64,000 nt of DNA, taken from the NCBI GenBank assembly GCA_014687725.1, contig GCA_014687725.1_4094.1; one strand, given 5' to 3'. Within the stretch, counting starts at the first letter, position 1. Every line of letters starts with the position of its first letter. This document shows, piece after piece, positions 29,748 to 39,583 of the stretch. This DNA comes from a phage. Under the pieces are notes generated by a model. That model was not told the origin of the DNA. It saw nothing but the letters and a program-made list of their open reading frames with translations, and did no database searches. Both the position numbers and the translations under genes were made by a program.

Positions 29748-30086
29748 ATGGAACAATATTTTGAATTAATAAACAAAGTATCATTTTATGTAGTATCTTT
29801 GGTTTGGGTGTATTATATGTTTTGCTACATTATTGCATTCTTCCGATACACTACTTTATATGAACGTATCTACTATGATGCCCCAATTTCATTCTTGATG
29901 TTTTGTGCATGTACGTGGGGAATATTAGAAGTACTGATATGTGGGTATAGTACTGATGAATTAAATCTGGTATCGGTCTTGACTGGGTTTTCATTTGTTG
30001 TTATGATAGCTGCCGTTCCAGTATGGTTGTTCTTTGTACTAGTTCATCGCATTGATATATGGCGTTCTAATATCCCTGAAAAGTAA
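29748..30086 (+). CDS. small membrane protein family (W/F-Y-F-K ... R-x-N-x-P tail), member
   Basis: Two or three hydrophobic helices; C-terminal RIDIWRSNIPEK. Confidence 0.55.
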   Translation: MEQYFELINKVSFYVVSLVWVYYMFCYIIAFFRYTTLYERIYYDAPISFLMFCACTWGILEVLICGYSTDELNLVSVLTGFSFVVMIAAVPVWLFFVLVHRIDIWRSNIPEK

Positions 30087-30095
30087 GGATTGGTA

Positions 30096-30437
30096 ATGAT
30101 TTATTACACTAACATGTTTGCCTATGCTGTTGCTTGCATTTACATTGTTTACTTCTTATTCGGTGGAGTACTGTGCTTCTTTAAGTACAAAACGTTGTTC
30201 AACCGAATGTACCCAAATCATCCAATTGTAGTTGTACTTTTGATTCTTTCAGTTTCTCAAATAATCGTTGAAACTACAATGGGTATCAGTAGTGTACATT
30301 ATAGTTTTGGTACTATAGTAATTATTACTATGCTTATTGCATACATTTTAGTACTTGGATATGGTATCTTTGGTAATATTGGTATGAAAATGTATCATCG
30401 AATTAAAACATTACGTGATAATCTACCGGAGCGTTGA
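30096..30437 (+). CDS. small membrane protein family member (113 aa)
   Basis: FKYKTLFNRMYP motif, C-terminal RIKTLRDNLPER. Confidence 0.55.
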   Translation: MIYYTNMFAYAVACIYIVYFLFGGVLCFFKYKTLFNRMYPNHPIVVVLLILSVSQIIVETTMGISSVHYSFGTIVIITMLIAYILVLGYGIFGNIGMKMYHRIKTLRDNLPER

Positions 30438-30438
30438 T

Positions 30439-30783
30439 ATGTATAATTTGAACCTAATCTCATATATTATAACAACACTGTTTACATTCTATGCCTTTGT
30501 TGGTATAATCCTACTGTACTTTAAATTTTATAAAGTGTTTAACCGTTTCTATCCTTCAATGGAGAATGAGTTTTTCTTTGTATTGTACGTAGGTTACACA
30601 TTAATGGCTACATGTTTCACTGTAGCCGATGGTGTCATCGGCATTAAAACTGATTCCCCAAATGGTAGTACGCTGGTTGCATTTATTCTTACCGGATTCC
30701 TTGCAACTTATATTGCCTTCATTACAACATGGTCAGTGGTTGAATTTCTCTTGCGACTACGAAAGAATATGCCGAATCGATAG
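30439..30783 (+). CDS. small membrane protein family member (114 aa)
   Basis: FKFYKVFNRFYP motif, C-terminal LRLRKNMPNR. Confidence 0.55.
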   Translation: MYNLNLISYIITTLFTFYAFVGIILLYFKFYKVFNRFYPSMENEFFFVLYVGYTLMATCFTVADGVIGIKTDSPNGSTLVAFILTGFLATYIAFITTWSVVEFLLRLRKNMPNR

Positions 30784-30792
30784 GAGACATAT

Positions 30793-31047
30793 ATGTTTGC
30801 ATTGCGTAACAAAAACACTAAAGAATTATTATGTATTGATACCGTATGGGATTGTGCGGGTTCAACTACAGTTCTTGAAGAAGGAACTGGATATTGCGTG
30901 TTTGTTGTACATGATAGGAATGAACTCGAATTATTACTTGCTGAGTTCAATGCTGGTGGTAATCCTAACAGTACTGAATACCCTGAGATTATCAATCCAG
31001 CACCTCCAGGTTCATATGAAATCCTACCACTATGGGTGTTGAAATAA
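30793..31047 (+). CDS. hypothetical protein (84 aa)
   Basis: Strong AGGAG RBS. Confidence 0.5.
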   Translation: MFALRNKNTKELLCIDTVWDCAGSTTVLEEGTGYCVFVVHDRNELELLLAEFNAGGNPNSTEYPEIINPAPPGSYEILPLWVLK

Positions 31048-31427
31048 TGCGACAAATGTACAAAGTAACCGAGCTAAACAAGCGTCTGGTTAAACAATCT
31101 ATGTTTGAGGATAAAGAGTCTTACTATAACTTTAAACGTGCTGTAGAGGCTGCTATCCACATTCAGAAGCTTAAAGAACGTGGTTGTATTATTCTGGAAA
31201 ATGGTTCGGAAGTTGTAACGGATGACTTTAGTGTAGCGTTTGATGTTTCACCTGATGGGACGCTATCAATGCCCCGCTTAGGAACTGGAAACATGACTGT
31301 TTGGGTTGGCTTCACTATGGGGAATGTACCTGGTACTGTGTACGTAGATGCTGCGGAATTGAAAGACAGTTTCAAAAACTTATCTTATCTTGAACCACAA
31401 TACGCACATGAAATGAATTTATTTTGA
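31047..31427 (+). CDS. hypothetical protein (126 aa)
   Basis: Internal ATG of track ORF 31032-31427. Confidence 0.5.
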   Translation: MRQMYKVTELNKRLVKQSMFEDKESYYNFKRAVEAAIHIQKLKERGCIILENGSEVVTDDFSVAFDVSPDGTLSMPRLGTGNMTVWVGFTMGNVPGTVYVDAAELKDSFKNLSYLEPQYAHEMNLF

Positions 31428-31428
31428 G

Positions 31429-37482: not shown

Positions 37483-37829
37483 TGTTTGAAGCTTATCTTG
37501 AGTTTTTAAGGAGTAGTCCAGTTGCACATTCAATTGCAGGGATTATTCTAACAGGTTATGTAACATTTTGGGTAGTTATGTTTCTAGGATGGTATTTTAA
37601 ACGACAATTCTATAAGCGTAATGGTGAAGATTTTATGAATTCTTTCATTAATCAATCGTTGTTTGCATCAACATTGATTGCATGTATTGTGGCTGTTCTA
37701 GCCGGAAAAGCACTACCTGCTTTTTCAGTCGTTTATGGAACAATTGGTATGATATGTGTAGTTTTTCACTTGATCATTAAACTTTGTTGTGTTATGATTG
37801 ACCTTCGAAACAAGATACCGGAGGAATGA
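37482..37829 (+). CDS. small membrane protein family B, member 3
   Basis: WYFKRQFYKRNGEDF motif, C-terminal LRNKIPEE. Confidence 0.55.
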   Translation: MFEAYLEFLRSSPVAHSIAGIILTGYVTFWVVMFLGWYFKRQFYKRNGEDFMNSFINQSLFASTLIACIVAVLAGKALPAFSVVYGTIGMICVVFHLIIKLCCVMIDLRNKIPEE

Positions 37830-38164
37830 TGGAATATTTTTTACACTTACTGCCGTGGTATATGAAAGTTAGTACCATGTACTATATTATTAGTGCTGGA
37901 TTCTACTTTCTGATGTGGTTCTTTAAACGACCAATTTCAGTATTCATCGCTGATAACATGCTGCAATTAAAATTACACGCATGGTTTGGTCTGGCGATGA
38001 TTATGCCTATTATTCACTACTCAATGATTAGTAGAGGTTTCCGTTCTAATGGTGAACCAATTGTATTAGTATTCTATTGGGGTTCAACTATTGCATATGT
38101 AAGTTTGTTGTTGTTCCCAGTCGTTCATAAGTTACGTGCTAAAGTTCCTGATGCGAGGTACTAA
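37826..38164 (+). CDS. small membrane protein family B, member 4
   Basis: WFFKRPISVFI motif, C-terminal LRAKVPDARY. Confidence 0.55.
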   Translation: MMEYFLHLLPWYMKVSTMYYIISAGFYFLMWFFKRPISVFIADNMLQLKLHAWFGLAMIMPIIHYSMISRGFRSNGEPIVLVFYWGSTIAYVSLLLFPVVHKLRAKVPDARY

Positions 38165-38478
38165 TGGATATAGTAACATTGATTTACACGTTGTATTCAT
38201 TCTATTTCATTATGTGTTGGGTTGGATTTTTATTTGTACTCAAGATGTTTGATTATGTTGAAAAACAGATAAAAGAATTTTGTATTCCTTTTATCGGTTC
38301 AACCATTATTAGTGTTTCTTGTGTGTATTTTTTGGTTTTTGATCCACCAGATAACACTGCAATGATTGACTTGATGTTACTACCAACAACTGTTACTTTT
38401 TTATGTAGTCTGATGCCGCCGATTAGCCGTGGACTAACAGAATTTAGACGCAATCAAAAGCGTAAACGAGGGATGTAA
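38164..38478 (+). CDS. small membrane protein family B, member 5
   Basis: Hydrophobic helices, basic tail RRNQKRKRGM. Confidence 0.5.
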   Translation: MDIVTLIYTLYSFYFIMCWVGFLFVLKMFDYVEKQIKEFCIPFIGSTIISVSCVYFLVFDPPDNTAMIDLMLLPTTVTFLCSLMPPISRGLTEFRRNQKRKRGM

Positions 38479-38846
38479 TGGAAATTGCTCTTATTATCTT
38501 AACTGCTATGTTGTTTATTAGTACTGTGGTTATAATTGGTAAATTCTTTTGTGTATCATTTTTAGAAACGGTATACGATGAAATTGCTGATGATTATGAA
38601 CTACAAGCCGGATTTTTCATTACGTATTGGCTTAGTTTATTTTGTCTAGTCATTGCTTGGATTTTACATATCTTTAAATGGGGTATGGTAGACGGTGATC
38701 CTATTATGGCAATTATTGTTCTAGTGTTTGGTATCCTTGGTGGTGCAGTGCATAATCTAATGGTTATCTGGCAAACTGTTCAATATGTTTTGGTTCCCTA
38801 TTTCGAAAAGATGCACAGTACAATTAAAAAACGTAAACGAGGTTAG
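38478..38846 (+). CDS. small membrane protein family B, member 6
   Basis: Hydrophobic helices, basic tail IKKRKRG. Confidence 0.5.
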   Translation: MEIALIILTAMLFISTVVIIGKFFCVSFLETVYDEIADDYELQAGFFITYWLSLFCLVIAWILHIFKWGMVDGDPIMAIIVLVFGILGGAVHNLMVIWQTVQYVLVPYFEKMHSTIKKRKRG

Positions 38847-38847
38847 T

Positions 38848-39210
38848 ATGAACGGGATAGAATTATCTTTCGTTGGTCAATTACTAGTAATGGCGTATAC
38901 ATTTATCTTCTCACTGAATGCATTCGTGTGCATTGGGAAGTACTTCCATAAGCGACCATTATCAAATATATATGATGTAATCCAAAAGAGATATAGTCCA
39001 GCATATACTGTGTTGGGTACAGTATTCAATTTTGGTTTTATTGTATTAATAATTGGACTGTTCACATCCTCTTTGAATACAATAACCTTCGGTCTTATGA
39101 TATGTTCATTGGTATTAGCCGTAATTATATGTTGTTTAGTACTGCACCTTGTGGTACTATTGTATATAAAGATCTCTGAAATCCACCAACGTTTGGGTAT
39201 GAGGAAATAA
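38848..39210 (+). CDS. small membrane protein family B, member 7
   Basis: Internal ATG of track ORF 38785-39210; hydrophobic helices. Confidence 0.5.
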   Translation: MNGIELSFVGQLLVMAYTFIFSLNAFVCIGKYFHKRPLSNIYDVIQKRYSPAYTVLGTVFNFGFIVLIIGLFTSSLNTITFGLMICSLVLAVIICCLVLHLVVLLYIKISEIHQRLGMRK

Positions 39211-39211
39211 T

Positions 39212-39583
39212 ATGAGTTACCGTGAGATATTTTCCATTATTTCAATTATTATGTTCAGTACTGGAACACTGGTATGGTTATTATACTTCTTCTGTATTAA
39301 TCCAGTGTATAATATGTTATGTAATATTAAATCAAGTGCCGGATATATCACTTTTATGGTCTTTATGGGATATTATTGTCTAAGCATTTTAGGTGTTGTT
39401 TTGGTTGTTATATTTGATGTGGGACCAAATAGTGATGGTATGGAAATACATGAATTAATAACCATGTTTGGATGTATGATACCAACAGCACTACTGTTTG
39501 TAGCTACTGGTAGTGGATTGATAAAATTATATAATTATTTAAAATCCATTCATAATTCCATTCATAATAAGCGTATGTCATAA
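39212..39583 (+). CDS. small membrane protein family B, member 8
   Basis: Hydrophobic helices, basic tail HNKRMS. Confidence 0.5.
   Translation: MSYREIFSIISIIMFSTGTLVWLLYFFCINPVYNMLCNIKSSAGYITFMVFMGYYCLSILGVVLVVIFDVGPNSDGMEIHELITMFGCMIPTALLFVATGSGLIKLYNYLKSIHNSIHNKRMS

What the first reader, a model, noticed from the sequence alone, without database searches (positions are those of the whole stretch)
29748..39583. Two clusters of paralogous small membrane proteins (3 plus 8 members)
ORFs at 29748-30783 (three) and 36803-39583 (eight) are 104-122 aa, each with two to four hydrophobic helices. Most carry a [WF]-[YF]-F-K-[RK] motif after the first helix and a basic C-terminal tail (RSNIPEK, RDNLPER, RKNMPNR, RDRIKGDF, RNKIPEE, KRKRG). 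Members 36803 and 37144 are near-duplicates. Tandem families of small inner-membrane proteins in phage accessory regions often act in superinfection exclusion or lysis control; that role here is unproven.
Basis: partly seen in the sequence, partly recalled or inferred. Interest (0 to 1): 0.6.

Follow-up and report, generated by a model that had tools for sequence, protein, structure and literature searches.

The report
Jumbo-phage family of small membrane proteins
Eleven neighbouring genes of a 350-kb E. coli jumbo phage encode one previously undescribed family of small three-helix inner-membrane proteins, found only in this phage lineage; their role is untested, and my best guess is that they help the phage in conflicts at the cell membrane.

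Summary
The window comes from an Asteriusvirus (121Q/PBECO4-like E. coli jumbo phage). It carries 11 real genes of 104-123 aa in two operon-like arrays of 3 and 8.

All 11 are homologous. Pooled profile comparisons gave 94-96% probability, against under 1% for reversed-sequence controls.

Almost every family member has exactly three hydrophobic helices, and charge placement predicts N-terminus out, C-terminus in. One Phe at the cytoplasmic end of helix 1 is invariant in 92 of 92 unique relatives.

The family is narrow. A profile of seven window members found only 30 cluster representatives among 1.84 billion. Those whose contigs I read come from uncultured sister phages. It matches no Pfam, NCBIfam, PADLOC or PDB entry; PHROGs splits it into unnamed families. 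A near-identical whole genome holds exactly these 11 copies.

The genes are under purifying selection (dN/dS 0.09-0.38), yet are 25-66% identical between strains whose flanking genes are 88-100% identical. Subfamily order is conserved, and single members can be lost. Sigma-70-like promoters and start/stop overlaps suggest early, coupled expression.

Function is inferred only. My best guess (about 0.3) is a superinfection-exclusion-type membrane battery. A lysis role is poorly supported. This is a solid new family of moderate interest.

The parts
29399..29427 (+). Sigma-70-like promoter site (TTGACA-17-TATTCT) in the 61-nt gap before the operon that holds array 1
   Evidence: A consensus match only; not shown to be functional.
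29464..29745 (+). 93-aa soluble ORF, first gene of the array-1 operon (2-nt gap to the next gene); not a family member
   Evidence: phrog_37917, function unknown. Also variable between strains, at 55-58% identity.
29748..30086 (+). Array 1, member a (112 aa, group A); tail RSNIPEK
   Evidence: (phrog_19285).
30096..30437 (+). Array 1, member b (113 aa from the ATG; 115 aa if the TTG at 30090 is used), group A; tail RDNLPER
   Evidence: (annotated from the ATG in ELP-22).
30439..30783 (+). Array 1, member c (114 aa from the ATG at 30439), group A; tail RKNMPNR
30793..31427 (+). Two further ORFs of the same operon (84 aa at 30793-31047; 126 aa at 31047-31427); not family members
   Evidence: Gaps of 9 and -1 nt. 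The next strong promoter-like site is at 31429.
35965..36735 (+). 256-aa P-loop ATPase, homologue of T4 NrdC.10. It always sits immediately upstream of array 2 in this lineage, and it has its own terminator-promoter cassette.
   Evidence: (phrog_1250, E 3e-103). Adjacency is conserved in L008, L012 and L014. It is not conserved in T4-like, Vibrio or Xanthomonas phages.
36745..36773 (+). Sigma-70-like promoter site (TTGACA-17-TACTAT), with an inverted repeat AGTACTAC/GTAGTACT in the spacer, in the 67-nt gap before array 2
   Evidence: A consensus match only.
36803..37144 (+). Array 2, member a (113 aa, group A); a lineage-specific duplicate of the next gene
   Evidence: 54% identity to 37144. 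Absent in WPEC3, JNE01, A4 and L008.
37144..37482 (+). Array 2, member b (112 aa, group A); tail RDKIRGDF
   Evidence: (phrog_19454).
37482..37829 (+). Array 2, member c (115 aa, group A); WYFKRQ motif; tail RNKIPEE
   Evidence: (phrog_19046). AF2 model with pLDDT 69 and helices at 2-11, 13-38, 55-77 and 84-110.
37826..38164 (+). Array 2, member d (112 aa, group A); WFFKRP motif
   Evidence: phrog_27396; 95% to the 37482 type.
38164..38478 (+). Array 2, member e (104 aa, group C); the most divergent member; tail KRKRGM
   Evidence: phrog_33258. It joins the family only through group B (96.2%) and at iteration 7 of the HMM search. It is annotated as two ORFs in 121Q.
38478..38846 (+). Array 2, member f (122 aa, group B); tail KKRKRG
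   Evidence: (phrog_26405).
38848..39210 (+). Array 2, member g (120 aa from the ATG at 38848, group B)
39212..39583 (+). Array 2, member h (123 aa, group B)
   Evidence: (phrog_27618).
39588..39613 (.). 11-bp-stem hairpin (AATCCAGTACT-ATTA-AGTACTGGATT) directly after array 2; a possible operon end
   Evidence: The T-run lies only on the minus-strand side, so a role as a + strand terminator is uncertain.

Best explanation
Shown:
- The 11 ORFs are real, selected genes of one lineage-restricted protein family.
- Each product has three hydrophobic helices.
- The family arose by old tandem duplication, and the order of the subfamilies has been kept since.
- Alleles differ far more between strains than the flanking genes do.
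- Single members are missing or disrupted in some isolates.

Predicted from sequence:
- Each product is an inner-membrane protein with a short acidic or neutral N-terminus in the periplasm.
- A conserved Phe plus a basic stretch sit at the cytoplasmic end of helix 1, and the C-terminal tail is basic and cytoplasmic.
- The genes lie in two tightly packed, translationally coupled operons behind sigma-70-like promoters, so they are probably made early by host RNA polymerase.

Inferred mechanism:
- The proteins insert into the host inner membrane early in infection and act as an accessory conflict battery.
- Most likely they work like superinfection-exclusion proteins, blocking genome entry or membrane damage by secondary phages.
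- Different paralogues and alleles would cover different targets through the most variable part, the helix 2-loop-helix 3 hairpin.
- The conserved cytoplasmic-face motifs would serve a shared need, such as insertion, anchoring or a common partner.
For: - Real genes: ribosome-binding sites before all 11. dN/dS is 0.09-0.38 against ph0011, WPEC3 and 121Q. Every gene is annotated as a CDS in relatives.
- One family.
- Topology: 87 of 93 unique members have 3 hydrophobic segments. Lys+Arg average 7.5 in loop 1 plus C-tail, against 0.9 in N-terminus plus loop 2. The pattern holds in 87 of 87. The AF2 model is all-helical.
- Early-type expression: strong sigma-70-like sites lie in the intergenic gaps before 29464 and 36803, and neighbouring genes carry a repeated terminator-promoter cassette. 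The related phage PA5oct relies on host RNA polymerase (PMC7318152).
- Coupling: start/stop overlaps of 1 or 4 nt run through most of array 2.
- Accessory and hypervariable: identity to JNE01 and A4 is 25-66%, against 88-100% for most flanking genes. WPEC3 lacks one copy. The 38164 type is annotated as two ORFs in 121Q. SD-1_S14 has deletions in the array. Uncultured relatives carry 6-12 copies.
- Not detected in virions: no entry between gp010 and gp035c in the phAPEC6 virion proteome, the interval where I place the arrays from their coordinates.
- Context: Asteriusvirus is over-represented among virulent phages that persist in E. coli isolates (bioRxiv 10.1101/2024.12.31.630880). Excluding competitors would pay in that lifestyle. 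This last point is inference.
Against: - No experiment and no homology ties the family to any exclusion protein. Pfam, PHROGs, NCBIfam, PADLOC, the PDB sequence search and Foldseek gave nothing.
- Conserved one-to-one order of subfamilies across divergent relatives and overall purifying selection fit stable, distinct roles or a complex at least as well as an arms race.
- Divergence is spread over the whole protein, not focused on the periplasmic parts.
- As far as I recall, known phages manage exclusion with one or two genes; eleven would be unusual.
- Promoter calls are consensus matches, and their total number is not above chance (71 found, 74 expected).
- Part of the C-tail conservation may reflect the ribosome-binding site of the next gene rather than protein function.
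Confidence: 0.3

Rival explanations
1. The proteins are host-takeover or anti-defence modulators. Each small membrane protein would bind and inhibit a host inner-membrane protein. Targets could be a membrane-acting abortive-infection effector, a transporter, a protease, or the division or respiratory machinery. This is how bacterial small membrane proteins such as MgrB, AcrZ and SgrT regulate larger partners.
For: - The same data on early-type promoters, accessory status and hypervariability apply.
- Divergence is highest in helices 2 and 3, as expected if recognition happens inside the membrane.
- Several members carry polar residues (E, D, Q, H) near the start of helix 2 (sequences).
- Many paralogues would fit many targets.
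Against: - No match to any known anti-defence or defence family.
- No host homologue. The exhaustive search gave only one borderline 468-aa sensor kinase hit at E 6.5e-4.
- No partner has been identified.
Confidence: 0.25
2. The paralogues are subunits of one hetero-oligomeric inner-membrane complex that serves the phage's own cycle, for example a channel or an assembly or replication anchor. The NrdC.10-like ATPase encoded just upstream might work with it.
For: - Translational coupling predicts equal dosage.
- Subfamily order is collinear in Asteriusvirus, L008 and L012.
- Selection is purifying.
- Both conserved motifs lie on the cytoplasmic face.
- The ATPase directly precedes the array in every relative of this lineage examined.
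Against: - Members are lost or disrupted in isolates, and copy number ranges from 6 to 12.
- A4 combines a window-type ATPase (96% identity) with a very divergent array (25-66%), so the two do not co-evolve as a unit.
- SD-1_S14 lacks the C-terminal half of the ATPase.
- NrdC.10 homologues occur in about 1,300 phage records. None of the three outside this lineage that I inspected has such an array beside it.
Confidence: 0.15
3. The proteins are holins or antiholins, acting as lysis-timing proteins of the class I type.
For: - Size (104-123 aa), three helices with N-out/C-in topology, and a charged basic C-terminal tail. From my own knowledge, these are the general hallmarks of class I holins such as lambda S.
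- Lysis inhibition has been proposed as one route to phage persistence.
Against: - No match to any holin family in Pfam or PHROGs.
- The predicted 121Q endolysin is gp532, far from gp207-209 and gp224-232.
- fEgEco12 has an annotated holin, yet nothing in this region of that genome is labelled holin.
- Promoters are early-type.
- No consistent dual-start motif.
- Eleven holins would be without precedent, to my knowledge.
Confidence: 0.07
4. The ORFs are chance hydrophobic reading frames in AT-rich DNA and are not functional genes.
For: AT-rich sequence (about 31-34% GC) gives many Phe, Ile, Leu and Tyr codons, which can mimic hydrophobic segments.
Against: - dN/dS is well below 1.
- The frames stay open in more than 30 phage genomes and in metagenomic relatives at 25-66% identity.
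- Ribosome-binding sites precede all 11.
- No reversed decoy reaches the family threshold.
Confidence: 0.01

Closest known systems
Phage superinfection-exclusion inner-membrane proteins (T4 Imm and Sp, P22 SieA, HK97 gp15)
   Same: Small, non-essential phage inner-membrane proteins of lytic or temperate phages. In T4 they are made early. They lie in accessory regions. This comparison rests on my own knowledge of those proteins.
   Different: - No sequence match. The Pfam and PHROGs scans gave no exclusion-protein family.
- Three helices here, against one or two in Imm and Sp as I recall them.
- Eleven ordered paralogues rather than single genes.
- An exclusion phenotype has not been tested.
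Class I holins (lambda S105 type)
   Same: About 105-125 aa, three transmembrane helices with N-out/C-in topology, and a basic charged C-terminal tail (holin features are from my own knowledge).
   Different: - Not next to an endolysin.
- Early-type promoters.
- No holin family match.
- No consistent dual start.
- Multi-copy.
Multigene families of membrane proteins in large eukaryotic DNA viruses (for example ASFV MGF110, cytomegalovirus US and RL11 families)
   Same: Tandem arrays of diverged paralogous small membrane proteins in a very large viral genome, with variable copy number and high divergence between strains. This is a conceptual analogy from my own knowledge.
   Different: No homology, different hosts and different membranes. 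Here the subfamily order is strongly conserved, and selection is purifying overall.
PHROG families 19285, 19454, 19046, 27396, 33258, 26405 and 27618 (all 'unknown function')
   Same: Ten of the 11 window proteins are members of these PHROGs, nine at E 1e-50 to 1e-70 and the 30439 gene only weakly (phrog_19285, E 3e-4).
   Different: PHROGs splits what is shown here to be one family into at least seven unlinked, unnamed families. The 38848 gene matches none.

Membership tests
Class I holin | Small protein with three transmembrane helices, N-out/C-in, and a charged C-terminal tail | tested here: met
   87 of 93 unique members have 3 hydrophobic segments. Positive-inside pattern holds in 87 of 87. 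C-tail averages 4.4 Lys+Arg.
Class I holin | Sequence membership in a described holin family | tested here: not met
   No holin family in Pfam at E up to 1 or in PHROGs at E up to 0.01. None in NCBIfam.
Class I holin | Gene placed with the lysis genes (endolysin, spanin) | tested here: not met
   The predicted 121Q endolysin is gp532 (PMC5259590). The arrays are gp207-209 and gp224-232. No lysis gene is annotated nearby.
Class I holin | Late expression and membrane hole formation | not testable with these tools
   Only promoter consensus sites are available, and they are of the sigma-70 early type. RNA-seq and a lysis assay are needed.
T4 Imm-type superinfection immunity protein | Sequence match to the Imm family | tested here: not met
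   The Pfam scan at E up to 1 and the PHROGs scan returned no immunity family for any member.
T4 Imm-type superinfection immunity protein | Blocks DNA entry of a superinfecting phage when expressed alone | not testable with these tools
   Needs plating-efficiency and DNA-injection assays.
Known anti-phage defence or abortive-infection membrane proteins (PADLOC) | Match to a PADLOC model | tested here: not met
   No hit at E up to 0.01 for the 8 members scanned.
The family defined here (3-helix membrane proteins with an invariant Phe; groups A, B, C) | Profile homology among all 11 window members | tested here: met
   Pooled profiles: A-B 94.4% and B-C 96.2%, reversed controls under 1%. Iterative HMM search: 110 hits, 0 decoys.
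The family defined here (3-helix membrane proteins with an invariant Phe; groups A, B, C) | Invariant Phe at the cytoplasmic end of helix 1 | tested here: met
   Phe frequency 1.0 at that match column in 92 unique sequences.
T4 NrdC.10 family (for the upstream ATPase at 35965-36735) | Full-length sequence similarity to NrdC.10 and a P-loop | tested here: met
   phrog_1250 at E 3e-103. 37-38% identity over 96% of its length to the RB18 gene annotated nrdC.10. AAA/P-loop Pfam hits. It lacks about 76 N-terminal residues of the profile.

The most novel reading that the evidence does not exclude
The eight translationally coupled, order-conserved paralogues of array 2 assemble into one hetero-oligomeric inner-membrane machine built by the phage. 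The array-1 proteins might join it. The conserved cytoplasmic-face motifs (the invariant Phe plus basic stretch, and the R-x-K-I-P tail) would dock the NrdC.10-like ATPase encoded just upstream. That would also give the first function for the widespread but uncharacterised NrdC.10 family.
Probability: 0.1. Interest if true: 0.8.

Novelty: new variant of a known kind. Interest (0 to 1): 0.45.

Why it matters
- About 83% of gene products in phAPEC6, a phage of this genus, have no known function (PMC7247149). Here 11 'hypothetical proteins' collapse into one defined family with a clear topology, conserved motifs and a population-genetic signature.
- If the family is an exclusion or anti-defence battery, it would be a phage counterpart of the multigene immune-evasion families of large eukaryotic DNA viruses. 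It might also help explain how these virulent jumbo phages persist in E. coli cultures.
- If instead it is a complex working with the NrdC.10-like ATPase, it would open a function for a protein found in more than a thousand phage genomes.
- Either way the hypothesis is directly testable, because the genes are small, clonable and individually dispensable.
- For phage therapy candidates of this genus, a battery that excludes other phages would matter for cocktail design.

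Tried and rejected
- Family libraries. Pfam (E up to 1), NCBIfam and PADLOC gave no meaningful hit for the members scanned. PHROGs gave only families of unknown function, plus one weak hit to 'membrane protein' phrog_16874.
- Structures. The PDB sequence search with the profile returned nothing. Foldseek of the AF2 model (pLDDT 69) found nothing in PDB and only an orthologue in BFVD. A three-helix bundle at that confidence is not informative.
- The search for related loci with the alignment failed, because no stretch was conserved enough.
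- Link to the ATPase outside this lineage. I checked genes next to NrdC.10 homologues in RB18 (T4-like), Vibrio VP-1 and Xanthomonas BUDD. None belongs to the family.
- Further copies. None in the rest of the window. None in a complete near-identical genome.
- Positive selection. Gene-wide dN/dS is always below 0.4. Site-level tests were not run.
- Focused variability. Periplasmic parts are not clearly more variable than the rest.
- Literature. Six papers on this phage group, read by search terms, and five full-text searches found no discussion of these genes.
- The 'Phi92_gp233' note in the ph0011 annotation was not followed to phi92. tblastn with two members found only Asteriusvirus.

Full report
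**Where the window comes from**

The 11.5-kb region matches Escherichia phage BAU.Micro_ELP-22 at 98.7% identity over its whole length. It also matches many other 121Q/PBECO4/G17-like E. coli jumbo phages of 350-385 kb, genus Asteriusvirus. In every annotated relative that I inspected the genes in question are labelled 'hypothetical protein'. One record calls one of them 'membrane protein'.

**Checking the observation**

The ORF list confirms three adjacent + strand ORFs between 29748 and 30783, and eight between 36803 and 39583.

- The best starts are ATG codons at 29748, 30096, 30439, 36803, 37144, 37482, 37826, 38164, 38478, 38848 and 39212.
- Each start is preceded by GGAG, GAGG or GGGG at 6-10 nt.
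- Products are 104-123 aa.
- Hydropathy shows three hydrophobic segments, not 'two to four'. 87 of 93 unique family members from all loci have exactly three.
- The strict [WF]-[YF]-F-K-[RK] motif occurs in four of the eleven, and a relaxed form in seven.
- The real invariant is the second Phe, present in 92 of 92 unique relatives.
- The quoted C-terminal tails are correct.
- 36803 and 37144 are 54% identical. They are the closest pair, but not near-duplicates.

**Are all eleven one family?**

Plain BLASTP links only a few pairs. I therefore built ortholog-group profiles from eight Asteriusvirus genomes and compared them, using reversed sequences as controls for composition.

| Comparison | hhalign probability |
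|---|---|
| The three array-1 genes with each other | 97-98% |
| 36803 vs 37144 | 99.9% |
| 37482 vs 37826 | 95% |
| Array 1 vs array 2 (30439-37482, 29748-37482, 30439-37144) | 92%, 86%, 78% |
| 38478 vs 39212 | 81% |
| Any reversed control | at most 5.6% |

An iterative HMM search started from the seven best-linked genes (group A). It ran over all ORFs of twelve loci plus reversed decoys.

- It converged on 110 genes, all of them in the arrays, with zero decoys.
- E-values jump from 6.5e-9 for the last member to 0.03 for the next sequence.
- 38478, 38848 and 39212 (group B) joined at iteration 4, and 38164 (group C) at iteration 7.

Pooled profiles then gave these results.

| Groups | Probability | Columns aligned |
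|---|---|---|
| A vs B | 94.4% | 109 |
| B vs C | 96.2% | 103 |
| A vs C | 51% | 19 (C-terminal only) |
| Reversed controls | under 1% | - |

So all eleven are homologous. 38164 attaches through group B.

**How wide is the family?**

- A word-indexed search of 5.8 billion protein clusters with all eleven sequences returned 33 clusters. All those I read are orthologues, and the named sources and long contigs (about 350 kb) are Asteriusvirus phages or E. coli assemblies.
- An exhaustive HMMER scan of 1.84 billion representatives with the group-A profile found only 30 at E up to 0.001. Nearly all are 101-119 aa and carry the same motifs.
- The contigs that encode the divergent ones come from uncultured sister phages. 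One contig is 324 kb. For one of these contigs (L014) I checked the ATPase: its closest cultured match is Asteriusvirus, at 61% identity.
- A complete near-identical genome (OR844650.1, 351,992 bp) contains exactly these 11 copies and no others. The next hit is a decoy at E 0.15.
- There is no match in Pfam, NCBIfam, PADLOC or the PDB sequence set, and no fold match in PDB. The only BFVD fold match is an orthologue (84% identity). PHROGs splits the family into at least seven unnamed families.

**Anatomy of the proteins**

- Topology. Lys+Arg counts average 0.45 in the N-terminus, 3.1 in loop 1, 0.44 in loop 2 and 4.4 in the C-tail. All 87 three-helix members obey the positive-inside rule for an N-out/C-in arrangement.
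- Motif placement. Both conserved motifs therefore sit on the cytoplasmic face. These are the Phe plus basic residues after helix 1, and the R-x-K-I-P tail after helix 3.
- Structure. An AlphaFold2 model of the 37482 protein is all-helical. It has a short N-terminal helix and three long ones, with mean pLDDT 69.
- Caveat. Inside array 2 the last codons of each gene also form the ribosome-binding site of the next gene (CCG GAG GA, CGA GGG, GGG GAT). Part of the tail conservation may therefore be at the nucleotide level.

**Gene organisation**

- Array 2 genes overlap by 1 or 4 nt, or are 1 nt apart. Array 1 sits in a tight run with three unrelated small ORFs (29464, 30793, 31047).
- Strong sigma-70-like sites lie in the gaps before 29464 (TTGACA-17-TATTCT) and before 36803 (TTGACA-17-TACTAT).
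- Neighbouring genes are preceded by a repeated cassette, GGTTGACTTCGGTCAGCC(C/T)TTTTTG..TATAAT. A terminator hairpin in it contains the -35 box. There are seven copies in the window against none expected.
- The total number of promoter-like sites is not above chance. The argument rests on their strength and their intergenic placement.
- The related jumbo phage PA5oct depends on host RNA polymerase. Early expression is therefore plausible but unproven.

**Evolution of the arrays**

- Divergence. Against JNE01 and A4 the family members are 25-66% identical, while most flanking genes are 88-100% identical.
- Selection. dN/dS against closer strains is 0.09-0.38 for the family and 0.05-0.26 for the flanks. 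The genes are under purifying selection with a somewhat higher ratio, and both dN and dS are raised. This pattern points to old allelic cassettes exchanged by recombination rather than to gene-wide positive selection.
- Where orthologues differ. Divergence is highest in helix 2, loop 2 and helix 3 (25-34% identity). It is lowest in the N-terminus, helix 1 and loop 1 (42-46%).
- Order. The sequence of subfamily types (37482, 37826, 38164, 38478, 38848, 39212) is the same in Asteriusvirus and in the uncultured relatives L008 and L012, with local duplications.
- Losses. WPEC3 lacks the 36803 copy. The 121Q orthologue of 38164 is annotated as two ORFs. Salmonella phage SD-1_S14 has deletions that remove half the ATPase, the 36803 type and most of the 37482 type. 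Assembly error cannot be excluded for these last two cases.

**The upstream ATPase**

- The 256-aa P-loop protein at 35965-36735 is a homologue of T4 NrdC.10 (phrog_1250, E 3e-103). Such homologues occur in about 1,300 phage records.
- It directly precedes array 2 in every member of this lineage that I examined.
- No family member lies beside it in a T4-like, a Vibrio or a Xanthomonas phage.
- A4 pairs a 96%-identical ATPase with a very divergent array.
- A functional link is therefore possible but not supported.

**What the proteins most likely do**

The evidence is:
- small inner-membrane proteins;
- early-type promoters;
- accessory status;
- strong divergence between strains;
- no entry in the phAPEC6 virion proteome in the gene interval where I place the arrays;
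- no link to the lysis genes.

Taken together, this points to a role at the host inner membrane during infection. I commit to an exclusion-type conflict battery as the single most likely mechanism, at about 0.3. It fits the timing, the location, the dispensability and the allelic diversity. It also fits the reported tendency of Asteriusvirus to persist in E. coli isolates.

The rivals, in order of likelihood:
- Modulators of host membrane proteins or membrane-acting defence effectors: 0.25.
- A hetero-oligomeric complex, possibly with the ATPase: 0.15. Coupling and conserved order favour it. Losses and the lack of co-evolution with the ATPase count against it.
- Holin or antiholin function: 0.07. 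The architecture fits a class I holin. Context, promoters and family searches do not.
- Non-functional ORFs: excluded by the conservation data.

The probabilities do not sum to 1, because other functions remain possible.

**Novelty and verdict**

No paper that I searched or read discusses these genes. The kind of thing, small accessory phage membrane proteins, is familiar. New here is the scale: one family supplies 11 ordered copies in a single genome, is restricted to one jumbo-phage lineage, and has a clear motif and topology signature. I rate it a real, well-defined and previously undescribed family of unknown function, of moderate interest.

Noticed in passing
window 22599, 26023, 27641, 28701, 32902, 34184, 35905 (+ strand): A repeated terminator-promoter cassette, GGTTGACTTCGGTCAGCC(C/T)TTTTTG..TATAAT. 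The hairpin stem contains a TTGACT -35 box, and a TG-extended TATAAT follows 18 nt later. There are seven copies against zero expected. The four I inspected (28701, 32902, 34184, 35905) each sit just upstream of a gene.
   Followed up: partly
window 37120-39215 (gene junctions of array 2): The last codons of each array-2 gene double as the ribosome-binding site of the next gene (CCG GAG GA for ..PEE, CGA GGG or CGA GGT for ..RG, GGG GAT or GGA GAC for ..GDF). Part of the conserved C-terminal tail may therefore be constrained at the RNA level.
   Followed up: partly
window 40268-42662 and onward, - strand: A second paralogous family: RCC1-repeat ('DNA condensation') proteins in a long minus-strand array that converges on array 2. 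phAPEC6 encodes eleven RCC1-like proteins, and four entries labelled 'DNA condensation protein' (gp003, gp005, gp007, gp009) are in its virion proteome.
   Followed up: no
window 35965-36735: The NrdC.10-like P-loop ATPase exists in two allele classes among Asteriusvirus genomes. It is 96% identical in A4 and 121Q, but only 58-59% in ph0011, WPEC3 and JNE01. These classes do not track the array alleles, which implies recombination breakpoints between the ATPase and the array.
   Followed up: partly
window 34472-35896: A 474-aa ORF annotated as a homing endonuclease in ELP-22. It is present in JNE01 (99% identity) but absent at this spot in ph0011, WPEC3 and A4, where other endonuclease-like genes sit instead.
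   Followed up: no
window 33516-33710: A 64-aa ORF with two hydrophobic segments, next to the endonuclease V gene. It is not a member of the family: at E up to 10 the family HMM listed only the overlapping minus-strand ORF 33286-33534 (E 0.51), not this ORF. It is 95% conserved in JNE01 and was not found in ph0011, WPEC3 or A4.
   Followed up: partly
L025 (Salmonella phage SD-1_S14), 4314-5005: Relative to the window, this phage has a deletion running from the middle of the ATPase gene to the start of the 37144-type gene. A second deletion lies inside the 37482-type gene. These are either natural deletion variants or assembly artefacts.
   Followed up: partly
window 28728-29402: A 224-aa ORF annotated in relatives as a T7-like protein kinase ('inhibitor of host transcription'). 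The local Pfam scan gave no hit. Precomputed Pfam for the homologue on contig L012 lists PF27024, Phage_T7_kinase.
   Followed up: no
window 36745-36773 and 39588-39613: Both ends of array 2 carry inverted repeats built on AGTACT (AGTACTAC..GTAGTACT in the promoter spacer, and CCAGTACT..AGTACTGG after the last gene). This may be a shared regulatory or processing motif.
   Followed up: no
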